Notes under the pieces: generated by a model
The model's database searches: none
Told to the model about the DNA's origin: nothing
Seen by the model: only the letters and a program-made list of their open reading frames with translations
IMG/VR virus record: IMGVR_UViG_3300021379_000848
Span: 1-63,217 of that record
Length of the DNA stretch: 63,217 bases
Strand: one strand, 5' to 3'
DNA from: a virus
Lineage: Duplodnaviria > Caudoviricetes
Shown here: in pieces, positions 26,330 to 33,899 of the stretch
How the letters are laid out: the number at the start of each line of letters is the position of its first letter
Position numbering within the stretch: the first letter of the stretch is position 1
Program-made: the position numbers and the translations under genes

Positions 26330-26542
26330 TGTTATTAAATTTTATTTGTTATTATTTTTATTATTCAATTGTATTATCAATGTTAGATCGTGCTCAGTCT
26401 GTAAAAAATAAAAGATCATTTAGCCGAGAGTACCTTTCTTACGTTTGGTGTTCAGTGTATAGCAACTCACTACATCCCCCTCAAGACTTTTTATGCTTTT
26501 GTGTCGGTTAGCTAAATAATCTTCTAACATAACAAATAACAA

Positions 26543-26806
26543 TTAATCTAACAATACGTAGTATGCATCAGGATTGTTCTTCCTGAACCACGTTAATGCT
26601 CTTTGCATATCTCTAACTAAAGAGGTTTGAACACCACCTTCAGTGTGGATCCTTTCTTCAGTCTTCTTTATAAAAAGGTACATAGATAACTCTAGACCAT
26701 TCAGTATAAACATTGCTCCACTGTATGGGTTTGTTACCATAAATTCACCTTCTTCAATAGGTCCTTTAAACCATTTTGGTATTTTATTATTCTTCATAAC
26801 CTTCAT
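26543..26806 (-). CDS. Hypothetical protein (NPYSG...WFRKNNPDAYYVLLD family)
   Basis: Packed ORF. Confidence 0.75.
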   Translation of the reverse strand: MKVMKNNKIPKWFKGPIEEGEFMVTNPYSGAMFILNGLELSMYLFIKKTEERIHTEGGVQTSLVRDMQRALTWFRKNNPDAYYVLLD

Positions 26807-27221
26807 CTAGTAATTCATCTACCACTGCGTCTTGCATTCTGTCTTGTACTTCGAAAAATAGTTCTTCAATTGCGCCTTCAACGAAATTAGCATCTAAATC
26901 GTTAACATAAATCTTCGTTTCATGACAAGGACCTTCTATTGCTGAAACTAAAGCATCAACAAGTTCATCGTCATAGTAATACACGTCTTCACTAAAAATG
27001 ATGTTATTAGGGTCTGATGTAGCTATAAATAGATCATATCCGTCAGCTGTTCCTTCCTCGTATACATAAAAATCACAATCTCTAGAGTCAAATACATCTG
27101 TTAATTCTACTTCATAGTAGTCCAACACTGCTTTTCTTTGAAGTTCTGAGTCATTCTCTTGTTTTTCACCGAAACCTTTAGCTTCTAGTCTTTCGTTGAT
27201 TAATTCATCTGTTATTTTCAT
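26787..27221 (-). CDS. Very acidic hypothetical protein (possible DNA mimic)
   Basis: Strong Asp/Glu enrichment; probable start MKITDE. Confidence 0.7.
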   Translation of the reverse strand: MKITDELINERLEAKGFGEKQENDSELQRKAVLDYYEVELTDVFDSRDCDFYVYEEGTADGYDLFIATSDPNNIIFSEDVYYYDDELVDALVSAIEGPCHETKIYVNDLDANFVEGAIEELFFEVQDRMQDAVVDELLDEGYEE

Positions 27222-27303
27222 GTTATTTGTTTTAAATAGAGTAGCTGTTACTGTCCAGTCATTAATCACCGTATTCTAGACCCGTGATCACTACTCTCGG
27301 TTA

Positions 27304-27570
27304 TTAAAAGTAGATTGTCAATCCGTCGTTTTTGATGTATAGCACACTGTCTAAGTTGAACGTGCGGAAACCATTGTCATTCATAGAGAATACAATTACG
27401 TTGTTTACTGCAGATGGATCATAAGATAAACCATTACCATTCACACCTTTCTTTACGCCAAATCTAGCGTTCATTGTTCTGATCTTACCATTCTTCTTTA
27501 CAAAAGTTACGGAAAAGATTTTACCATTTTGTCTTAATTGATCGAAGATCACTTGTTTTAAATTTTTCAT
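27304..27570 (-). CDS. SH3/WYL-like small phage protein
   Basis: FSVTFVKKNGKIRTMNAR...GFRTFNL. Confidence 0.65.
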   Translation of the reverse strand: MKNLKQVIFDQLRQNGKIFSVTFVKKNGKIRTMNARFGVKKGVNGNGLSYDPSAVNNVIVFSMNDNGFRTFNLDSVLYIKNDGLTIYF

Positions 27571-27884
27571 TTTTTTCTATTATTTTTAATTGTTTCTTTA
27601 AATTCTTTTACTGGGAAATACCCTACACCTATAAAACTAATTTCAGGATCCCATCTATACTGTATTCTAACATACACCCTGCCGTCTTTTTTCAACGTAA
27701 AATTATTGAATTCAGTAGCTTCAGGTATAGATAACTGCACTAACTCAAGAGCAACGTCAATAATGTTTTTATACTCACTTTGTATTTCTTTAGGTAAATA
27801 CTCGTATCCTTTGTTTTGAAGGGTAAGCTCAGGAAAAGCTTTGTAAATTCCCATTAACAAATCACCGTTATTCGCTCTTCTCAT
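27567..27884 (-). CDS. Hypothetical protein (probable start MRRAN)
   Basis: Packed ORF. Confidence 0.65.
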   Translation of the reverse strand: MRRANNGDLLMGIYKAFPELTLQNKGYEYLPKEIQSEYKNIIDVALELVQLSIPEATEFNNFTLKKDGRVYVRIQYRWDPEISFIGVGYFPVKEFKETIKNNRKK

Positions 27885-28146
27885 AAGTTTTCTTTTTAAA
27901 TGCATCACCAAAACGGATATCATGTGTACTATAAGCATTAAATGCTTTGTCTCGATGAGGGATAGGAACACTATTAAAAATAGTAGCTATCTCACTTATA
28001 GTAAGTTCACCCCACGAATATACTCTGCGAGAAACGATATCTTGTAATATACCGGGGTACTCCACAGCTAATACTTCTACTACGTCGTCAATTAAGACGT
28101 CAGTTAAAAAAGAATTTAATGTAATTTCAGTTTGAATTGTTTTCAT
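27868..28146 (-). CDS. Hypothetical early protein
   Basis: Preceded by motif copy 28178. Confidence 0.7.
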   Translation of the reverse strand: MKTIQTEITLNSFLTDVLIDDVVEVLAVEYPGILQDIVSRRVYSWGELTISEIATIFNSVPIPHRDKAFNAYSTHDIRFGDAFKKKTYEKSE

Positions 28147-28180
28147 AATTATAGTTTTTATTTGTTATTCAATTAATTTA

Positions 28181-28552
28181 TCAGTCAGTGATCGTGTTTA
28201 GATTGTAAGTTTCAACATACGCTTTCCACTTATTTACTTTTTTCAAATATTTTAAGTAATATAGGTATAGCATTTTTGCCCTCTCATCTTCAGAATCAAC
28301 TAACACACAAGTACCATCCTCGTTTCTTCTGTTTAATTGGTAAGATGTCCAACACCCATTCTGCCTGCGGATATACCCTGAAGAAAACGATGCTAACCTT
28401 AATTTCGTTTGTGATACAAAAGGTACACCCATCATGGTGTTACCAAAAGAACATGGTACTGGAAATTCAAACTCCCTAGTTCCGTTAACTCTTTGACGAT
28501 CCGTTGTAACTTCAACAGCTCCTAGTTTAAGTAGTTCACTATATACATTCAT
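28181..28552 (-). CDS. Hypothetical early protein
   Basis: Follows the RNA cluster; its stop lies inside a motif copy. Confidence 0.7.
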   Translation of the reverse strand: MNVYSELLKLGAVEVTTDRQRVNGTREFEFPVPCSFGNTMMGVPFVSQTKLRLASFSSGYIRRQNGCWTSYQLNRRNEDGTCVLVDSEDERAKMLYLYYLKYLKKVNKWKAYVETYNLNTITD

Positions 28553-28574
28553 AATTATAGTTTTTATTTGTTAG

Positions 28575-28662
28575 TGGACGTGGCAGGAATCGAACCTGCG
28601 TTTTGAAGCATTTGGACTCGGTAACCTGTTATTTATTCGCTTCGTCTAACCATTTCACGCCC
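28575..28662 (-). ncRNA. tmRNA-like RNA reduced to the tRNA-like domain (88 nt)
   Basis: Acceptor GGGCGTG/CACGTCC with G3.U70 and discriminator A; stemless D-loop AAATGGTTAGAC; helix GAAGCG/TGCTTC; T-arm GCAGG-TTCGATT-CCTGC; no anticodon arm. Confidence 0.75.
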
Positions 28663-28665
28663 AAT

Positions 28666-28747
28666 TGCAGCACCTACCTTCAATACTATCCGTCGATAGC
28701 GTCCTACTTTGGGTGGCATTACGGTATCGTAGAATACCTGTGCTGCA
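28666..28747 (-). ncRNA. Putative 82-nt multibranch RNA
   Basis: Closing stem TGCAGCAC/GTGCTGCA; internal hairpins GGTAT/ATACC and CTATC/GATAG. Confidence 0.5.
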
Positions 28748-28748
28748 T

Positions 28749-28962
28749 TGAGAAGCGGATAGACCTGGAATGTTAGGGATGCTCCCGGATTACACTAAGG
28801 AATGCACGTCATTTACTAGTATGCCCTGACTTATAACCTCAGTGTACGCTACCTAGACTTACACCCTTTTCTCTGTTTATACTATCTTTCACCGTCATCG
28901 AGCCGTTTCTCTCATCCCGCTAAGGAATTACGCCTTTAATCCGGTTTCCAGACTTCTTCTCA
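28749..28962 (-). ncRNA. Putative ~214-nt structured RNA
   Basis: Nested pairings TGAGAAG/CTTCTCA, CTGGAA/TTCCAG, CCGGATTA/TAATCCGG, TAGTAT/ATACTA; begins 24 nt downstream of motif copy 28986; no ORF in track. Confidence 0.55.
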
Positions 28963-28992
28963 GTTTTATTTTTTATTCAATTAATTTATCAT

Positions 28993-29208
28993 TTAACGAT
29001 CGTGCTCAGTTTGTAAGCACTCTAATATATATTCATACACCTGCTCTTCTATTTTATTAGAAGCCAATCTAAGCTCCAACGCTTCCCTATCTACTGCTCC
29101 GATCAGATTATATGTTAACTCATAGTCAATTCTCTGACGATCAAATAAAACACCGGAAAGTTTAGAAACAATCTTCGCTATAGCCCTCTCTTTTATCTCG
29201 CTATTCAT
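28993..29208 (-). CDS. Hypothetical early protein
   Basis: ORF ending inside a motif copy. Confidence 0.7.
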   Translation of the reverse strand: MNSEIKERAIAKIVSKLSGVLFDRQRIDYELTYNLIGAVDREALELRLASNKIEEQVYEYILECLQTEHDR

Positions 29209-29446
29209 CTTCTACCATCGATTTAAAATCAAAATCCCTAGTATACTTCAAACGTCGTTTAGCTTTAGCAAGTAACTGCTCGTAAAGCTCTACTTCGGTC
29301 ATGTATAGCAATTCCATCTTATCGCTATCATCATAGTAAAGATCATCCTCCCAAGATAACATGTCCGCTACATAATCTTCAACCACAAATATGCACTTAG
29401 AAACCACTCGGTCAATCACCTCATTTATATCTTCTGATTTATCCAT
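29201..29446 (-). CDS. Hypothetical acidic early protein
   Basis: Preceded by motif copy 29486. Confidence 0.7.
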   Translation of the reverse strand: MDKSEDINEVIDRVVSKCIFVVEDYVADMLSWEDDLYYDDSDKMELLYMTEVELYEQLLAKAKRRLKYTRDFDFKSMVEDE

Positions 29447-29645
29447 ATTAATCTATTTTTTTATATCTAATTAACTTCATTTATTTTATCACATGCTTAT
29501 CGTATCCAGATCGTAAGTACTACAAACTCCGTAATACCAACAATGTCAACGACAAACCTATCCGTATCCGCACTCCAATTCCAAACAAACCAAAGGATAT
29601 AAAATATTTACCCAATAATTCACTATAAGGGGTGGTTACCCAGTA

Positions 29646-29672
29646 TGACAAAGTGTCAGTGACAAAATGTCG
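29646..29672. repeat. Tandem TGACA-N3-TGTC(A/G) palindromes
   Basis: TGACAaagTGTCA g TGACAaaaTGTCG. Confidence 0.6.
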
Positions 29673-29707
29673 TGGTAGTGGAGCACTCGGTAATGAGTTT
29701 CAAAAAT

Positions 29708-29753
29708 GCGACACTAGCCTGTTATATAATATATAGTAGCACCCAATTGTCGC
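29708..29753 (-). repeat. GCGACA...TGTCGC element copy 2
   Basis: GCGACActagcctgttatataatatatagtagcacccaatTGTCGC. Confidence 0.85.
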
Positions 29754-29780
29754 ACTTTTTACGCTCTTTTTTTACTCTGA

Positions 29781-30365
29781 TTACTTATCTAGAATGGTGA
29801 GTACTACGCCAACTATGTCACTTAATTCTGCATATTTTCGTCTATCACTGTCAGCTGTATATTTAAATACACCCATACTGTAAAGACTAGTTCTTTTTTC
29901 ACCTCTTCTTCTTTGTAGTTCGCTGAGTAATTCTTGTAAATCCCATATTTTACCTGTTGATATCCATCCCTTGTGAGGTGAATCACTAGCAACATCGTTA
30001 AGTCTTTTTAGCTCTCCACGGATGAGGTCATCTAGGGTTTCTAGATCAGCATTGAATAAATCGGTAGGTACAGATTTTCTCTTCAGTTTTATACAGTAAT
30101 CTACTATTGATTCTTCGAAATCGTCGAAATCGTCTTTAAATAGATCTTTGTATAGCTCTTTAAATTTGCCGTATTTCACCTGTTTACCGCCTAGGTAGTA
30201 GGTTACGTCGCCATCTGGATCTTCTATGGAAGTATAACCAGGAACTACGCTTACTATGCCTCCGAATAGGTGGACTTCAGCTTTTATAAATTCATTTACT
30301 TGTATTTCGTAATCTGAAGAGAACCTTATATAGTCCTCGTGGTGGTGTCTTTTAATTAATTTCAT
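29781..30365 (-). CDS. Hypothetical early protein, 194 aa
   Basis: Preceded by motif copy 30391. Confidence 0.75.
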   Translation of the reverse strand: MKLIKRHHHEDYIRFSSDYEIQVNEFIKAEVHLFGGIVSVVPGYTSIEDPDGDVTYYLGGKQVKYGKFKELYKDLFKDDFDDFEESIVDYCIKLKRKSVPTDLFNADLETLDDLIRGELKRLNDVASDSPHKGWISTGKIWDLQELLSELQRRRGEKRTSLYSMGVFKYTADSDRRKYAELSDIVGVVLTILDK

Positions 30366-30410
30366 TGTTATTGTTTTTGTTACATTAATATTATCGATCG
30401 GTGGTCGTGT

Positions 30411-30599
30411 TTAGTTTGTAAGAATTTGTTTCATTAAATCCTCTATTAACATTTCTTCAGTTTCGCCGTCTTCTAGATCGCAGCAGCACTCTACAAAGTC
30501 AGTTACTGATTTTAATAAATCTTCTTTACCCATGTAGTTAGACTCGAATCTAAAGGCATTTAAGGTATCTTCATTCCAATAAAATTTCTTATTTTCCAT
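30411..30599 (-). CDS. Hypothetical acidic protein
   Basis: ORF track. Confidence 0.7.
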   Translation of the reverse strand: MENKKFYWNEDTLNAFRFESNYMGKEDLLKSVTDFVECCCDLEDGETEEMLIEDLMKQILTN

Positions 30600-30613
30600 A
30601 ATATTGATAATTT

Positions 30614-30874
30614 TTAAGCAGGAGATAATTCCCAGCTAACTATTTCTACCTCAACCCAGCCTTTTTCACTGTGGTTTCTATATACTCCTAATCCGTCTTT
30701 AGTTAGAATTTCTACTAACCTTCCGGCTGCTCGCCATAGATCAGGGTCAGGTGTTTCATCATGTTCGTGGTCGTACATTATGTCGCCTCTACACTGGTAG
30801 AACACATCGTCTACGTCATTCTCTACTAGTTCAAAATCCCAACCGTTTACGGTAATATTTTCACATAATTCCAT
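30614..30874 (-). CDS. Hypothetical acidic protein
   Basis: ORF track. Confidence 0.7.
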   Translation of the reverse strand: MELCENITVNGWDFELVENDVDDVFYQCRGDIMYDHEHDETPDPDLWRAAGRLVEILTKDGLGVYRNHSEKGWVEVEIVSWELSPA

Positions 30875-30876
30875 AT

Positions 30877-31080
30877 CTACTTAGTATTTAATAATTGATT
30901 CTTCATTTCCTCTAAGGCTAATTTATACCCAAAGTTCTTAGACAACTGCATTAATAAGAAGTCAGCTGATCCGTGGTTAGCTTTCGTGAATTCCTCGAGA
31001 TACTCCGCGGTAGGAGTCGCTACAATTCCTCTATCTAACATATTAAATTGTTCAGTTAAAAAGGTTTCTAATGTTTTCAT
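30877..31080 (-). CDS. Hypothetical early protein
   Basis: Preceded by motif copy 31107. Confidence 0.7.
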   Translation of the reverse strand: MKTLETFLTEQFNMLDRGIVATPTAEYLEEFTKANHGSADFLLMQLSKNFGYKLALEEMKNQLLNTK

Positions 31081-31196
31081 TGTTATTATTTTTTGTTACA
31101 CATATATTATCAATCAAAGTTCGTGTTTATTCTGTAAGTGCTATACACGGTGACCTCATCTACCGATCAATCTCTAAATCTAAATACGGTGTAGGA

Positions 31197-31233
31197 CGGA
31201 GTCTACTCTTCCGGTCTTATCTCAGAACCAGGC
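31197..31233. repeat. 37-bp dispersed repeat (second copy 32650-32686)
   Basis: CGGAGTCTACTCTTCCG.TC.TAT.TCA.AA.CAGGC in both places. Confidence 0.8.
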
Positions 31234-31327
31234 CATATAGTTTATCAAAAAGAAACCGTGTTTACGGTGCAGGTGCTATACACCCTGGGGGATTAGGTGC
31301 ATACACTTCAGTTTTTTATATTTAACA

Positions 31328-31483
31328 TTATACATATTTCTTATTCTCGTACTGAAGTTCATTATCGTAAAACTCAAAAGCCTCATCATCACCATTGCTA
31401 TCAGGACTCTCTAAGTAATACTCAAACACTTCTCTAATTAACGTTAGTTCATCATCTGTAAATCTTCTTGTATAGTATTTCAT
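31328..31483 (-). CDS. Hypothetical 51-aa acidic protein (not in ORF track)
   Basis: MKYYTRRFTDDELTLIREVFEYYLES... Confidence 0.6.
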   Translation of the reverse strand: MKYYTRRFTDDELTLIREVFEYYLESPDSNGDDEAFEFYDNELQYENKKYV

Positions 31484-31503
31484 ATCATTTGTTTTAATTG
31501 TTT

Positions 31504-31644
31504 TTAGTCTGATATTTTTTCAACGATCACAGCGTTAAGAGCCTTGGATATGATCCTAGCATGTTTCCAGCTGTAACAGTTGGCGTAAAACTTTCCTGAT
31601 CTGTCCCTGAATAGGAACGTCATCTCAGGTTTTTCTAAATTCAT
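31504..31644 (-). CDS. Hypothetical 46-aa protein (not in ORF track)
   Basis: MNLEKPEMTFLFRDRSGKFY...; preceded by motif copy 31676. Confidence 0.65.
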   Translation of the reverse strand: MNLEKPEMTFLFRDRSGKFYANCYSWKHARIISKALNAVIVEKISD

Positions 31645-31735
31645 AATATATCTATTTAATTGTTATTCACTTATGTTATCGATCAATGATCGTATTTGTT
31701 CTGTATGTATAGCACCCCGAGGGGCGACCCAAGGC

Positions 31736-32056
31736 CTACTCAGTAGCAGGCTCTAGGTCAATTCTCTCAATCACTAAGTGACGTACATTTGTTGGCATGT
31801 CTGTTGACTGTGACCAGTATCCGCGCTTATTCCAGCATGGCATTAGGTTTAACTTTGGAAGCATTGCTTCGAGTACATCGTCGTGATTGTACGTAATCTG
31901 TTGATTTTTGTTGTTCACGAAGGTGATGATTTGGTTTCGACCCAGCCAGCCTTTTCGGACTACGAAGTTTTTTCTCGTGATCGGTGGGAAAATTGCCGCC
32001 AATTCTTTTTTACTTAGTTTTGCGATTGCTTTTGTAATTGCTTCTTGATTTTTCAT
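31736..32056 (-). CDS. Hypothetical early protein
   Basis: Preceded by motif copy 32105. Confidence 0.75.
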   Translation of the reverse strand: MKNQEAITKAIAKLSKKELAAIFPPITRKNFVVRKGWLGRNQIITFVNNKNQQITYNHDDVLEAMLPKLNLMPCWNKRGYWSQSTDMPTNVRHLVIERIDLEPATE

Positions 32057-32138
32057 GATAAATTGTTTTTAATTGTTATTATTTATTTTTGTTATTCACT
32101 TATGTTATCGTTTATTCGTCGTGTTTGTTTTGTAAGAC

Positions 32139-32348
32139 TTAGAATCTTTCATAGTCTTTATGATCTAACACGTGATAGTACGAGTACCCTTTATGGTTGA
32201 ATTTCGGACGTTCATATTCTTTGTAATACTTGTTTGGTATTTCAGATATTCTGAACCCTATGTAGTAACAGAAGTCGTCTTTAAATTTCATCTTTTTTGA
32301 TCTTGGTGTTTTTGTTCTTGAGTGGTTGTGTCCTACTACTAAATCCAT
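32139..32348 (-). CDS. Hypothetical early protein
   Basis: Between motif copies. Confidence 0.65.
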   Translation of the reverse strand: MDLVVGHNHSRTKTPRSKKMKFKDDFCYYIGFRISEIPNKYYKEYERPKFNHKGYSYYHVLDHKDYERF

Positions 32349-32424
32349 ATTTAATTGTTTTTAATTATTATTATTTTCTTTATTCACTTATATTATCAAC
32401 TTTACTTCGTATCCAGTTTGTAAG

Positions 32425-32559
32425 TTAGTAATTTTCTAATATATCTTGTATTGAGTCGTTCGTTTTTGGGTGGATCGTATTAATCCAAAACCATTCTACT
32501 TCTTCGTTTGTCGGATTTTTAGATAAAAAATCTAAACATTCTAATTTTAATTCTTTCAT
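32425..32559 (-). CDS. Hypothetical 44-aa protein (not in ORF track)
   Basis: MKELKLECLDFLSKNPTNEEVEWFW...; between motif copies. Confidence 0.65.
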   Translation of the reverse strand: MKELKLECLDFLSKNPTNEEVEWFWINTIHPKTNDSIQDILENY

Positions 32560-32735
32560 TTTGTTATTGTTATTTTCTTTATTCGCTTATATTATCAATA
32601 GTACCCCGTGTTTACTCTGTAAGTGCTATACATGCTATACACTCCAGGTCGGAGTCTACTCTTCCGATCCTATTTCAAAATCAGGCTAAAATTATCCAGA
32701 CCAAAAGCTTGATCTGGATAGATATTTTTTTAGGT

Positions 32736-32882
32736 TTAGTTATCTATAGCTTGTTCTATCAGGCTTTTTAATAAGTCTAAAGCTTCTGGGCCTTTTTTAG
32801 TACCTTTTGATATATGATCCCATAAGATATCTTCTAAGCAGTAAAATTGATCTTTGTTTAGTTTAAAATTTTTAGTTTGCAT
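32736..32882 (-). CDS. Hypothetical 48-aa protein (not in ORF track)
   Basis: MQTKNFKLNKDQFYCLEDILWDHI...; motif copy upstream, hairpin TATCCAGA/TCTGGATA downstream. Confidence 0.65.
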   Translation of the reverse strand: MQTKNFKLNKDQFYCLEDILWDHISKGTKKGPEALDLLKSLIEQAIDN

Positions 32883-33057
32883 TTTAAATTGTTTTAAATT
32901 GTTATTTATTTTTCATTCAACTATATTATCAAAGTAAGACCGTGCCTAGACTGTAAGATGCTATACATGCTGTACACGCCGTTGGCGTACGTATATAACG
33001 GGTCAACCCCGAGCCCGTGTAAGGACCCAGGGAAACCCTGAATGGATAAAATGCATG

Positions 33058-33258
33058 TTATGATTCCAGATCCGGCTCAGTTATATGCCTCCAGGCCGAA
33101 GACTTAAGCCGAATGTTTTCAAGCTTTAGGTTTGTGTTCTTGAAGTCCAGCTCATCGGCTAGCTCAGCCAGTTTGTTGAGGTTTTCGATCTGGGTCGCAT
33201 CGTCAAGATGCTTATATAGTTCATGGAATAATTCTCCTACTTGTCTGTTGTACCACAT
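33058..33258 (-). CDS. Hypothetical coiled-coil protein
   Basis: ORF track. Confidence 0.6.
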   Translation of the reverse strand: MWYNRQVGELFHELYKHLDDATQIENLNKLAELADELDFKNTNLKLENIRLKSSAWRHITEPDLES

Positions 33259-33277
33259 AATTTATTGTTTTAAGGTG

Positions 33278-33436
33278 TTAATCGCGGATGAATATGCCGT
33301 TATACATGCTCCCGAACAAATTGTCATATAGGTCCTGGATTTCTTCGGTCGTGAACCCGGATAGGTCAAACTCACAGCCAAATTCTGATTCGATCTCGGC
33401 ACATAGCCACTCGCGTTTTGATGATTTGTAACTCAT
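33278..33436 (-). CDS. Hypothetical 52-aa protein, first early gene (not in ORF track)
   Basis: MSYKSSKREWLCAEIESEFGCEFDL...; preceded by motif copy 33464. Confidence 0.65.
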   Translation of the reverse strand: MSYKSSKREWLCAEIESEFGCEFDLSGFTTEEIQDLYDNLFGSMYNGIFIRD

Positions 33437-33899
33437 AATTATTATATTCTTGATTCACCTATATTATCAAAACCAGGCCGTGTCCAGACTGTAAGATGCT
33501 ATACACCTCGCTGCGCTCGGCTTGTAAGCCGGTATGCAATCGCACCACGGATCCGCAACCCCAAATCCGCACCTGAAAATTAGTACGGAATCCCAAACCA
33601 GTACACAAAAACCTTCCGGAATCCCAAAAACCCGACCCGAAATCCAAAAACCGAACGGGGGCTGGGTAAAAGAAACAGCTTTCCCAATGAGCCGGGTAGT
33701 GAAAATATGAGTATATTACCCCGAACCTCTATATTTCTAACATTTTTTTTTAACCTTTACATCTCTACTACTTCTTTTTAGGTGTTTTTCACGGGTACGG
33801 ATAGATTTTTTTTTGTCTTATGACATGCTGTTATGTGGAAATATTAAAAAAATTTTTCTCTTACGAGAATATACAAACGATAGGGAGCGAGTATAAAGT

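What the first reader, a model, noticed from the sequence alone, without database searches (positions are those of the whole stretch)
28575..28662. tmRNA mimic consisting only of the tRNA-like domain
Seen (minus strand): GGGCGTG AAATGGTTAGAC GAAGCG-27 nt-TGCTTC AAAAC GCAGG TTCGATT CCTGC CACGTCC A. Established: G3.U70 plus A73 are the AlaRS determinants; a stemless D-loop with GG ending in GAC, a P2 helix in place of the anticodon arm and a short linker into the T-arm define the SmpB-binding domain of tmRNA. The ~270-nt pseudoknot/tag region is replaced by 27 nt, and CCA is not fully encoded (ACTA). Inference: an alanylatable SmpB/EF-Tu decoy or tag-less ribosome-rescue RNA that could shield phage proteins from trans-translation or counter tRNA-cleaving defences.
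Basis: partly seen in the sequence, partly recalled or inferred. Interest (0 to 1): 0.82.

Follow-up and report, generated by a model that had tools for sequence, protein, structure and literature searches.

The report
Phage tag-less mini tmRNA gene
A flavobacterial-type phage carries a 91-base gene that copies only the alanine-accepting, tRNA-like end of the bacterial ribosome-rescue RNA (tmRNA), a rare kind of molecule already noted once in a mycobacteriophage and probably used to interfere with, or replace, the host's rescue of stalled ribosomes.

Summary
Minus strand 28662-28572 holds a 7-bp acceptor stem with G3.U70, A73, a stemless 12-nt D-loop (GG...GAC), a 6-bp P2 helix closed by 27 nt, a canonical T-arm and a CTA tail.

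Identity: the Rfam tmRNA model matches both of its ends with the middle deleted (35.1 bits, below the cut-off of 47). The tRNA model matches only the T-arm, and ARAGORN calls nothing.

It is not a one-off. I found 67 unique relatives (57-149 nt) in 78 loci. P2 and T-stem pairs covary, and G3 is kept in 64 of 67. Five of 5 near-complete sister genomes carry 1-2 copies and no full tmRNA. A more distant cultured relative, Cellulophaga phage phi38:1, has a full-length tmRNA with the same CTA tail.

The kind is already in print: mycobacteriophage DS6A "TLD only", reported to inhibit E. coli tmRNA. DS6A's element has the same build and scores 43.2 bits in the same test. Other agents of this scan noted similar mini-tmRNAs on other DNA.

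Function is untested. Most likely it competes for SmpB and blocks tagging.

New here: the size of the family, swappable hairpin modules, and a conserved structured leader RNA in an early, promoter-headed RNA cassette.

The parts
28572..28662 (-). TLD-only tmRNA-like RNA gene: acceptor stem with G3.U70, stemless D-loop, P2 hairpin (6 bp + 27-nt loop), linker AAAAC, T-arm, A73 at 28575, and a CTA trailer at 28574-28572
   Evidence: RF00023, both ends matched; family model R1, 85.4 bits, the only strong hit in the window; R1 was built from an alignment that includes this sequence; homologues, covariation
28975..29004 (-). Early promoter-like tripartite motif (CACG-N10-GATAA-N6-TGAAT) heading the RNA cassette
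   Evidence: 12 matches at up to 2 mismatches, all on the minus strand between 26.3 and 33.5 kb, 0.63 expected from shuffles. One copy sits here and the next is at 28196-28167, after the downstream ORF
28895..28962 (-). First upstream RNA module (GATTAAAGGCG-hairpin-CGGCTCGATGA). The same module lies upstream of the mini-tmRNA in other loci and inside the P2 loop of the L126 element
   Evidence: 47 nt at 96-98% identity to L066, L099, L126; in L126 it is INSIDE the element; L126 and L137 sequences
28748..28905 (-). Conserved structured 'leader' RNA: two covarying helices close a nearly invariant ~37-nt loop (core 28835-28798). In the window the inner helix is lengthened by two matching insertions
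   Evidence: 8 of 14 pairs changed on both sides, 97% of cells paired against 33-51% when slid; the two window-specific insertions pair with each other
28666..28747 (-). 82-nt hairpin module closed by an 8-bp stem (GCAGCACC with GGTGCTGC), between the leader and the mini-tmRNA
   Evidence: fold. No full homologue among the held loci; partial likeness by eye to inserts of L067 and L075
28181..28552 (-). 123-aa ORF starting 19 nt after the RNA's CTA trailer (22 nt after its discriminator), with no terminator between them. It belongs to a small protein family found near the mini-tmRNA in many related loci
   Evidence: (homologues in 35 loci at E <= 1e-3, 50-1300 nt from the element where one was recorded); no Pfam or PHROG family; confident model with no PDB match

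Best explanation
The element is a phage gene for a tag-less mini-tmRNA. It is the complete tRNA-like domain of tmRNA, with helix P2 closed by a short hairpin where the pseudoknots and tag reading frame would be. It derives from a full-length phage tmRNA of the kind still carried by related flavobacterial phages.

Shown by these calls: the anatomy, the homology, the family, and its position in an early, promoter-headed cassette.

Inferred mechanism:
- It is transcribed early, together with the upstream RNA modules and the downstream ORF.
- RNase P cuts it out at G1 and an RNase Z-type activity cuts after A73. The host CCA-adding enzyme completes the 3' end.
- AlaRS charges it with alanine through G3.U70 and A73.
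- It binds the host's SmpB (and, once charged, EF-Tu) through its D-loop/T-loop elbow and P2.
- With no resume codon and no stop codon it cannot complete trans-translation. It therefore acts as a competitor that draws SmpB, and stalled-ribosome A sites, away from host tmRNA. This keeps proteins made during infection from being ssrA-tagged and degraded.

P2 points away from the ribosome, like a long variable arm. That would explain why anything from about 20 to 110 nt is tolerated there.
For: Identity
- RF00023 matches 28572-28662(-) over model positions 1-374 at 35.1 bits; the alignment is.
- RF00005 matches only the T-arm, at 14.5 bits. ARAGORN calls nothing.
- The published DS6A 'TLD only' element behaves the same in the same test (83 nt, 43.2 bits) and has the same order of parts, including the A-CTA tail.

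Selection
- 67 unique TLD-like homologues in 78 loci. G3 opposite U70 in 64 of 67. A closing P2 helix of at least 4 bp in 58 of 67, against 23% of shuffles.
- On 39 aligned members the first P2 pair is GC 11, AU 8, CG 8, UA 7. Two T-stem pairs change on both sides. The covariation score is 0.282 against 0.091 in shuffles (0 of 500 reach it) and at most 0.102 when slid.
- A near-identical copy in L006 differs by a compensatory T-stem change, GCAGG/CCTGC to GCGGG/CCCGC.
- A second scan found 13 unique mini-tmRNAs of the canonical GGTTTCGAC...GGAC type with several different acceptor sequences. All 13 keep G3.U70 and A73. 12 of the 13 are not called by ARAGORN; the 13th, L241, is called as a longer tmRNA.

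Stability in the lineage
- 5 of 5 near-complete sister genomes (62.7-69.4 kb) hold 1-2 such elements at 33.5-38.9 bits and no match over the tmRNA cut-off.
- phi38:1 holds a 362-nt tmRNA at 87.6 bits. Its relative Calle is reported with one tmRNA gene (PMC8776804, passage).

Expression context
- An early promoter-like motif lies 313 nt (28974-28663) upstream on the same strand.
- No terminator-like site lies between the element and the next ORF.
- The window encodes no SmpB, so any SmpB partner must be the host's.

Mechanism
- PMC4131195 (passage) and PMC11915505 (passage) state that a DS6A-like molecule strongly inhibits E. coli tmRNA, charged or not, perhaps by titrating SmpB.
Against: - No expression, processing, charging or binding data exist. 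The run search listed no RNA holder.
- The fold is not more stable than shuffles (z = -1.54).
- The linker before the T-arm is AAAAC (TAAC or AAAC in 53 of 67 relatives). Bacteroidota and phi38:1 tmRNAs, and the Rfam consensus, have GGAC there. A contact that needs those two G's could be lost.
- 3 of 67 relatives have A3-U70, which should not be charged.
- The acceptor 3' strand, T-loop and A73 were fixed by my search pattern, so their invariance within the family is ascertainment, not evidence.
- A pure SmpB sponge does not explain three things: some genomes keep two copies with different P2 inserts, the inserts are shared modules, and the element sits in an array of other structured RNAs.
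- The inhibition experiment is known to me only through two secondary passages. The original (Mao et al. 2009) is not held.
- The host is inferred only from terminase similarity.
Confidence: 0.45

Rival explanations
1. Tag-less ribosome rescue. The charged mini-tmRNA enters stalled ribosomes with SmpB and accepts the nascent chain. The peptidyl-RNA then drops off and is hydrolysed. This frees ribosomes during infection, when host mRNA decay creates many non-stop messages, without marking the products for proteolysis.
For: The anatomy is the same as for the competitor model. CDS-less tmRNAs are retained in mitochondria together with a nucleus-encoded SmpB, and in two plastid genomes; the database authors read this as a remaining role in handling incomplete mRNAs (PMC11915505, passage). 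Keeping G3.U70 in 64 of 67 and in 13 of 13 argues that charging matters. A pure SmpB sponge would not need it, since the DS6A-like inhibitor is reported to work uncharged.
Against: There is no stop codon or resume codon, so no canonical release. The release step is hypothetical. The only reported experiment on such a molecule found inhibition, not rescue. Nothing here tests it.
Confidence: 0.2
2. tRNA-like scaffold and punctuation. The conserved tRNA-like shell mainly supplies RNase P and RNase Z cleavage sites and nuclease-resistant ends. These serve a processed early RNA array and whatever RNA module sits at the P2 tip. The payload modules, not trans-translation, would be the function.
For: The same modules occur either upstream of the element or inside its P2 loop. 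The window's 28941-28895 is 96% identical to the insert of the L126 element. By eye, the segment upstream of L006 copy 2 matches the inserts of L117 and L167. P2 content ranges from about 20 to 110 nt. Two copies with different inserts occur in L006 and in G006. A covarying leader RNA precedes the element in 12 aligned loci and the window. The cassette has its own promoter-like motif.
Against: A scaffold needs neither G3.U70 nor A73, yet both are kept across different acceptor sequences. The shortest members (57-70 nt) have almost no payload. The two roles are not exclusive.
Confidence: 0.15
3. Decoy for a host defence that senses or cleaves tmRNA or tRNA-like RNAs. Examples would be systems with SmpB-like domains, or nucleases acting on tRNA or tmRNA.
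For: Context only. The element lies among small early genes of unknown function. Defence systems with SmpB-like domains have been predicted (PMC11090510, passages). A staphylococcal phage anti-CRISPR uses tRNA and tmRNA fragments (PMC11662646, passages).
Against: No defence or anti-defence gene was identified next to it. It has no anticodon loop, so it cannot stand in for a cleaved tRNA. Nothing I ran links it to any system.
Confidence: 0.08
4. Ordinary or decayed tRNA, a decaying remnant of a phage tmRNA, or an attP copy of the host ssrA 3' end, with no function of its own.
For: It scores below Rfam's tmRNA cut-off. No CCA is encoded. The fold energy is unremarkable.
Against: No anticodon arm: ARAGORN calls nothing and RF00005 matches only the T-arm. 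Both halves of the acceptor stem are present, which an attP fragment would not need. No tyrosine integrase was found. The 3' end pattern occurs in only 29 stretches of genome contigs; none of those record titles names a flavobacterium, and none of the 29 that carry a full-length tmRNA is labelled Bacteroidetes. The element is conserved with compensatory changes in 67 unique variants and in 5 of 5 sister genomes.
Confidence: 0.03

Closest known systems
'TLD only' tmRNA of mycobacteriophage DS6A (tmRNA Website; Hudson, Lau & Williams 2014, PMC4131195; Mao et al. 2009, known to me only through citing passages)
   Same: Same order of parts: 7-bp acceptor with G3.U70, stemless D-loop with GG...GAC, P2 hairpin, short linker ending in AC, T-arm TTCGATT, A73, CTA tail. 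Same behaviour against RF00023: both ends matched, below the cut-off, 43.2 bits against 35.1 bits here. Phage-borne, intergenic, and unannotated in the record.
   Different: Unrelated phage and host phylum (Actinomycetota, against a flavobacterial-type podophage). There is no sequence homology beyond the shared TLD consensus. The window's P2 loop differs from DS6A's (AAAACCGCACGCGGTAC). The window's linker is AAAAC and DS6A's is CAC. The window's element belongs to a large family with modular P2 inserts and a conserved upstream leader RNA; nothing like that is described for DS6A in the passages I read.
CDS-less tmRNAs of organelles (jakobid and other mitochondria, Rfam RF02544; two ~65-bp Mallomonadaceae plastid genes; PMC11915505)
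   Same: tmRNA reduced to the tRNA-like domain, with no tag reading frame.
   Different: These are organellar genes working with an imported SmpB, in a reductive-genome setting. Here it is a virus gene acting in a cell that has its own complete tmRNA.
Full-length phage tmRNAs (Cellulophaga phage phi38:1 and Calle; mycobacteriophage Bxz1 group; two-piece tmRNA of Melnitz and pelagiphages)
   Same: Phage-encoded. phi38:1 shares a terminase at 37% identity with this phage. Its tmRNA has G3.U70, a 12-nt D-loop and the same A-CTA tail.
   Different: phi38:1's RNA is 362 nt, passes the Rfam cut-off (87.6 bits) and carries a tag frame. The window's element lacks everything between the two P2 strands.
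Bacterial tmRNA (SsrA, Rfam RF00023)
   Same: Acceptor stem, G3.U70, A73, D-loop analogue, P2 and T-arm. Two Bacteroidota MAG tmRNAs have a D-loop of the same length, ACCGGTTTTGAC and ACTGGTTTTGAC.
   Different: No pseudoknots, no resume codon, no tag frame, no stop codon. The score is below the gathering threshold. The linker is AAAAC instead of GGAC.

Membership tests
tmRNA proper (Rfam RF00023) | tRNA-like domain: 7-bp acceptor stem with G3.U70, discriminator A73, T-arm, and a D-loop analogue without a stem | tested here: met
tmRNA proper (Rfam RF00023) | mRNA-like domain: resume codon, tag reading frame and stop codon | tested here: not met
   Only 27 nt lie between the P2 strands. In the Rfam alignment 326 model positions are replaced by 44 nt.
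tmRNA proper (Rfam RF00023) | Pseudoknots PK1-PK4 (or their replacements) around the tag frame | tested here: not met
tmRNA proper (Rfam RF00023) | Score at or above Rfam's gathering threshold (47 bits) | tested here: not met
   35.1 bits; 26.5 bits; nothing at gathering thresholds
TLD-only (CDS-less) tmRNA forms, DS6A type | Complete TLD with P2 closed by a short hairpin; total length roughly 65-110 nt; no tag frame | tested here: met
   88 nt to A73. Part-by-part match to DS6A's 83-nt element.
TLD-only (CDS-less) tmRNA forms, DS6A type | Closer to tmRNA than to tRNA by covariance models | tested here: met
   RF00023 35.1 bits over both ends against RF00005 14.5 bits on the T-arm only. DS6A scores 43.2 bits in the same test.
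TLD-only (CDS-less) tmRNA forms, DS6A type | Alanylation, SmpB binding, inhibition of host trans-translation | not testable with these tools
   Needs bench work. Only second-hand reports exist for DS6A.
tRNA (Rfam RF00005 / ARAGORN) | Cloverleaf with D stem and anticodon stem-loop | tested here: not met
   ARAGORN finds 0 genes. RF00005 matches only model positions 43-63 at 14.5 bits, E 0.139.
attP copy of the host ssrA 3' end | Only the 3' part of ssrA, identical to the host gene, next to an integrase | tested here: not met
   The 5' half is present too. No PF00589 integrase. The 3'-end pattern occurs in 29 stretches of genome contigs. None of their record titles names a flavobacterium, and those carrying a full-length tmRNA are labelled Chloroflexi, Anaerolineae or Gammaproteobacteria. 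The two Bacteroidetes-labelled stretches (L143, L167) hold the mini-element, not a host tmRNA.

The most novel reading that the evidence does not exclude
The mini-tmRNA is the 3' terminal unit of an early, promoter-driven, processed array of exchangeable structured RNA modules in flavobacterial-type phages. The array holds a covarying leader hairpin whose invariant loop carries an 8-nt palindrome that changes while staying a palindrome, a GATTAAAGGCG...CGATGA hairpin, an 82-nt module, and then the TLD. The P2 tip of the TLD is an alternative docking site for the same modules. On this reading the TLD is both punctuation and a vehicle: a stable, chargeable shell that binds SmpB and EF-Tu and stabilises or delivers RNA cargo. 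The system would be a modular phage ncRNA toolkit, not a simple tmRNA decoy.
Probability: 0.2. Interest if true: 0.75.

Novelty: new member of a known kind. Interest (0 to 1): 0.52.

Why it matters
What phage-encoded tmRNAs and their reduced forms do during infection is unknown. In the papers I could read, the only TLD-only phage case is a one-line note on DS6A, plus a reported inhibition of E. coli tmRNA.

This window shows the reduced form is a conserved feature of a whole lineage of about 63-kb flavobacterial-type phages. A second, independent set of mini-tmRNAs with other acceptor sequences exists in other viral contigs. Every one of those keeps the alanine identity pair.

Together this makes 'phages tamper with ribosome rescue through a chargeable SmpB ligand' a general, testable hypothesis. 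It also gives a covariance model and about 80 natural variants for designing the tests. The modular inserts and the leader RNA may matter for RNA engineering, as a natural tRNA-like scaffold, and for finding further phage ncRNAs.

Tried and rejected
- ARAGORN on the window and Rfam at gathering thresholds: nothing. The identity rests on sub-threshold RF00023 matches.
- BLAST of 1.2 kb around the element and of the 97-nt element against cultured-phage records: no homologue, only T-arm matches to tRNAs.
- Family model R1 on five cultured relatives (MW202828.1, elemoD, phi19:3, phi38:1, Gundel_1): no family member. The best hit is 31.7 bits, a G3-C70 tRNA-like oddity in Gundel_1. I therefore found no cultured system carrying this family.
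- Public sequencing runs: no RNA holder listed, only small DNA shares.
- SmpB (PF01668) and tyrosine integrase (PF00589) in the window: none.
- Sigma-70 promoter and terminator scan: nothing above shuffles near the element. Bacteroidota promoters are not covered by that tool.
- A short tag frame in the P2 loop (GCG AAT AAA TAA), or GGG CAT ACT AGT AAA TGA in the leader core: considered and dropped. Other family members have unrelated P2 loops. Three leader variants (L029, L082, L086) carry a 2-nt insertion inside the putative frame.
- Complementarity of the RNA array to two Bacteroidota MAG tmRNAs and to phi38:1's tmRNA: longest stretches are 9, 9 and 7 nt, within the range of shuffles. The true host is unknown, so this says little.
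- Downstream ORF123: no Pfam or PHROG family. The AlphaFold model is confident (pLDDT 88.3). There are 0 PDB matches at E <= 0.001 out of 101 listed. I found no SmpB-like fold and no functional link.
- An alternative acceptor pairing of the leader's TGACGTG with CACGTCC: noted, not tested.
- Mao et al. 2009 could not be read. Supplementary files of the tmRNA database papers were not opened; they may list further viral TLD-only entries.
Full report
WHAT IS THERE

On the minus strand, 28662 to 28572, the sequence reads: GGGCGTG / AAATGGTTAGAC / GAAGCG / 27 nt / TGCTTC / AAAAC / GCAGG / TTCGATT / CCTGC / CACGTCC / A / CTA.
- The two outer heptamers pair 7 of 7, with G.T at pair 3-70.
- The pentamers form a T-stem around a canonical T-loop.
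- The hexamers form a helix that takes the place of an anticodon arm.
- There is no D stem.
- RNAfold returns exactly this fold. It is not more stable than shuffles (z = -1.54; 20 of 200 shuffles do as well), so energy alone proves nothing.

The element lies in a 440-nt ORF-free gap between two minus-strand ORFs. A 57-aa TTG ORF on the plus strand (28603-28776) overlaps it. The pattern of variation among relatives (whole-hairpin replacement, 1-2 nt indels, paired changes) is that of an RNA, not of a coding frame.

WHAT THE WINDOW IS

The window is a whole IMG/VR virus record of 63,217 bp, estimated 98% complete, with about 33% G+C. It encodes ribonucleotide reductase, a primase-helicase, GroEL, large terminase and portal.

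Its terminase finds 87 cultured-phage records: Flavobacterium 68, Cellulophaga 15, Tenacibaculum 2, Maribacter 1 and one uncultured podovirus. Identity runs from 62% down to 32%. The host is therefore most likely a member of the Flavobacteriaceae. That is an inference from similarity.

tmRNA OR tRNA?

- ARAGORN calls nothing in the window. Rfam at gathering thresholds finds nothing.
- Scored alone, the tmRNA model RF00023 matches 28572-28662(-) from model position 1 to 374: 35.1 bits (E 4.6e-14 for the record) and 26.5 bits (E 1.2e-9).
- The alignment pairs the 5' 17 nt and the 3' 30 nt with the consensus. It replaces 326 model positions by 44 nt.
- The cut-off is 47 bits, so this is not a tmRNA by Rfam's rule.
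- The tRNA model matches only the T-arm (14.5 bits, E 0.139).

Two Bacteroidota MAG tmRNAs have a D-loop of the same length (ACCGGTTTTGAC, ACTGGTTTTGAC). They have GGAC before the T-stem where the phage element has AAAAC.

THE FAMILY

Three exact-pattern scans of IMG/VR brought in 139 loci (the third found 110 stretches, of which 80 were fetched).
- A script found 103 elements (83 unique) whose 5' heptamer pairs 7 of 7 with CACGTCC. Six 3' ends had no partner.
- Of the 83 unique, 7 are 217-398 nt, of which several are full-length phage tmRNAs. One of 243 nt has a tag frame ending ALAA.
- 9 have a D stem and were set aside as tRNA-like.
- 67 are TLD-like, 57-149 nt, from 78 loci.

Among the 67:
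- G3 stands opposite U70 in 64.
- The tail after the stem is A-CTA in 56 and A-CCA in 3.
- The four bases before the T-stem are TAAC or AAAC in 53.
- A closing P2 helix of at least 4 bp is present in 58, against 23% of shuffled centres.

The acceptor 3' strand, T-loop and A73 were fixed by the search pattern, so their constancy is not evidence. The 5' half, G3, the D-loop and P2 were free to vary.

On a 39-sequence alignment the first P2 pair is GC 11, AU 8, CG 8, UA 7. Two T-stem pairs change on both sides. The covariation score is 0.282 against 0.091 +/- 0.011 in shuffles (0 of 500) and at most 0.102 when the partners are slid.

The closest copies, L006 825-917 and L107, keep the 27-nt loop almost unchanged. 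L006 carries a compensatory T-stem change and a 2-nt longer D-loop.

Five of 5 near-complete sister genomes (62.7-69.4 kb) hold one or two such elements (33.5-38.9 bits) and nothing over the tmRNA cut-off. The two in G004 are the two copies of its terminal repeat.

In the bacterial genome collection the same 3' end occurs in only 29 stretches. The family members among them lie on MAG contigs, most of them short (0.6-8.6 kb; L167 lies on a 56-kb contig). No stretch is named as a flavobacterial tmRNA. In three of those MAGs the elements score 35-39 bits against RF00023, while the MAGs' own tmRNAs score 142-174 bits.

BEYOND THIS FAMILY

The first scan also found two other groups with other acceptor sequences, GGGGGTG/CACCTCC and GGGTGTG/CACATCC. 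Both have G3.U70 and A73.

Of 81 matches in the 80 fetched loci, 13 unique elements of 75-82 nt fit the full descriptor.
- They carry several different acceptor sequences.
- All 13 have G3.U70 and A73.
- ARAGORN calls none of 12 of them. The 13th, L241, is called as a longer tmRNA and should be set aside.
- Four of them abut tRNA genes.
- Several share a P2 design with DS6A: P2a, then UAAA(A/G), then a small hairpin, in two cases the very CCGCACGCGG of DS6A.

The alanine identity pair is thus kept while the rest of the acceptor stem changes. This is the best evidence that charging matters.

WHAT IS KNOWN

- Hudson, Lau and Williams 2014 (PMC4131195, passages read) list 'Mycobacterium phage DS6A (TLD only)'. 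[quoted passage not shown] 2009).
- The 2025 tmRNA database paper (PMC11915505, passages) repeats this. It adds CDS-less forms in mitochondria and two plastids. Its virus set was RefSeq.
- I located the DS6A element myself: 28478-28560, 83 nt, 43.2 bits against RF00023, unannotated between gp33 and gp34. Part for part it has the window's build, down to the A-CTA tail.
- Cellulophaga phage phi38:1 has a 362-nt tmRNA (87.6 bits) with G3.U70 and A-CTA. Its relative Calle is reported with one tmRNA gene (PMC8776804, passage).
- Full-length phage tmRNAs are reported in 2.3% of phage genomes (PMC9004378, passage).
- My five literature searches turned up no description of TLD-only genes in flavobacterial or metagenomic phages. 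That is a statement about those searches only.
- Other agents of this scan reported similar mini-tmRNAs on other DNA. I did not test those.

The element is therefore a new member of a known, little-studied kind.

SURROUNDINGS

A tripartite motif, CACG-N10-GATAA-N6-TGAAT, occurs 12 times at up to 2 mismatches (0.63 expected). All copies are on the minus strand between 26.3 and 33.5 kb. One lies at 29004-28975 and the next at 28196-28167.

Between those two copies lie, in order:
- a hairpin module (28962-28895);
- a leader RNA (28905-28748);
- an 82-nt module (28747-28666);
- the mini-tmRNA;
- a 123-aa ORF, starting 19 nt after the RNA's CTA trailer (22 nt after its discriminator), with no terminator-like site before it.

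The leader recurs upstream of the element, on the same strand, in 15 other held loci; twelve of these were aligned.
- Its two helices covary: GATAG/CTATC, GACGGG/CCCGTC and GGCAG/CTGCC for the outer; AGGG/CCCT, AGGA/TCCT and AGAG/CTCT for the inner.
- 8 of 14 pairs change on both sides. 97% of cells are paired, against 33-51% when slid.
- The loop of about 37 nt is nearly invariant. It holds an 8-nt palindrome that changes from TACTAGTA to TACCGGTA and stays a palindrome.
- In the window two extra segments, one on each side of the loop, pair with each other and lengthen the inner helix.

The upstream 303 nt fold better than shuffles (z = -2.26; 3 of 100 shuffles do as well). Rfam finds nothing there.

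Modules move. The window's 28941-28895 is 96-98% identical to segments upstream of the element in L066 and L099, and to the P2 insert of the L126 element. By eye, the segment upstream of L006 copy 2 recurs as the P2 insert of L117 and L167.

ORF123 belongs to a family found in 35 held loci at E <= 1e-3, 50-1300 nt from the element where one was recorded. It has no Pfam or PHROG family. It gives a confident model (pLDDT 88.3) with no PDB match at E <= 0.001.

HOW IT MOST LIKELY WORKS

Shown: the anatomy of a complete TLD, its descent within a phage lineage that elsewhere keeps full tmRNAs, purifying selection on structure and on G3.U70, an early-gene setting, and the absence of a phage SmpB.

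Inferred from established knowledge of tRNA and tmRNA maturation (recalled, not tested):
- cutting by RNase P and an RNase Z-type enzyme;
- CCA addition;
- alanylation through G3.U70 and A73;
- binding of SmpB at the elbow and P2, and of EF-Tu when charged.

With no resume or stop codon it cannot finish trans-translation. The simplest outcome is competition with host tmRNA for SmpB and for stalled ribosomes, as reported second-hand for the DS6A-like RNA.

I put about 0.9 on 'tmRNA-derived TLD-only gene under selection' and about 0.45 on the competitor mechanism. The rivals are:
- tag-less rescue (0.2), favoured by the retention of charging identity;
- a scaffold and punctuation role for the RNA array (0.15), favoured by the modular inserts and double copies;
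- a defence decoy (0.08);
- junk, tRNA or attP (0.03).

The first three are not mutually exclusive.

WEAK POINTS

- No expression data: no RNA holder was listed.
- The AAAAC linker differs from the GGAC of real tmRNAs.
- Three relatives have A3-U70.
- Much of the family's uniformity is ascertainment, and the members are related, so counts of sequences are not counts of independent events.
- The host is unknown.
- The key experiment is known to me only through citing papers.

VERDICT

The kind is already known, so this is a new member. Added value comes from the size of the family, its spread to independent acceptor types, and the RNA cassette around it.

Noticed in passing
window 28748-28905 (-); also L006 233-340, L053 10344-10451(-), L084 284-391(-) and 9 more loci: Conserved structured leader RNA upstream of the mini-tmRNA. 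Two covarying helices close a nearly invariant ~37-nt loop (core GGGCATACTAGTAAATGACGTGCAT). An 8-nt loop palindrome changes TACTAGTA to TACCGGTA and stays a palindrome, which would suit a kissing dimer or a dimeric protein site. No Rfam match.
   Followed up: partly
window 28895-28941 (-) against L126 1643-1689, L066 919-965, L099 1141-1187; L006 761-824 against the inserts of L117 and L167: The same structured modules occur either upstream of the mini-tmRNA or inside its P2 loop. The P2 tip is a permissive docking site, and the modules behave as exchangeable units.
   Followed up: partly
window 26363-33482 (-): Twelve copies of CACG-N10-GATAA-N6-TGAAT, all on the minus strand (0.63 expected). 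They head small early-gene cassettes, including the RNA cassette at 29004-28975. It is not the Bacteroidota consensus promoter as I recall it.
   Followed up: partly
window 28181-28552 (-): A 123-aa protein family (motifs EVTT.RQ.KNGTREFEFP, SGYVR, YQLNP) near the mini-tmRNA in 35 related loci. Confident AlphaFold model, no Pfam, PHROG or PDB match.
   Followed up: partly
L191 (Cellulophaga phage phi38:1, record 26803-27164, minus): Full-length phage tmRNA whose tag frame reads by eye as about 30 codons and does not end in the usual ALAA. It also lacks an encoded CCA (A-CTA).
   Followed up: no
L003 9342-9420, L007, L016, L017; MW202828.1 532-630 (L185): Leu-like class II tRNA shells (GGTGGCGGAAT TGGTTAGACGC ... 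TTCGATT) with a long insert in place of the anticodon region. ARAGORN does not call them, although they sit in large phage tRNA clusters.
   Followed up: no
L141, L151, L157, L158 (Acidobacteriota-labelled genome contigs): 69-72-nt elements with the GGGCGTG/CACGTCC acceptor, a T-arm and an AACC tail, but a different interior. They may be another tRNA-like small RNA class in cellular genomes.
   Followed up: no
L162 (2.6-Mb contig labelled Anaerovoracaceae): 147-nt tmRNA-like element with the same acceptor, intermediate in size between mini and full-length forms, on a chromosome-sized contig.
   Followed up: no
L183 (Tenacibaculum phage Gundel_1, record 73061-73132): 72-nt tRNA-like element with no anticodon arm and with G3-C70, just upstream of the phage's tRNA cluster. 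ARAGORN does not call it.
   Followed up: no
L174 1318-1640 (= L167, a 56-kb contig of a Bacteroidetes-labelled MAG): Leader RNA followed by two tandem mini-tmRNAs. The first has an encoded CCA and a G7.U66 pair; the second has the CTA tail.
   Followed up: no
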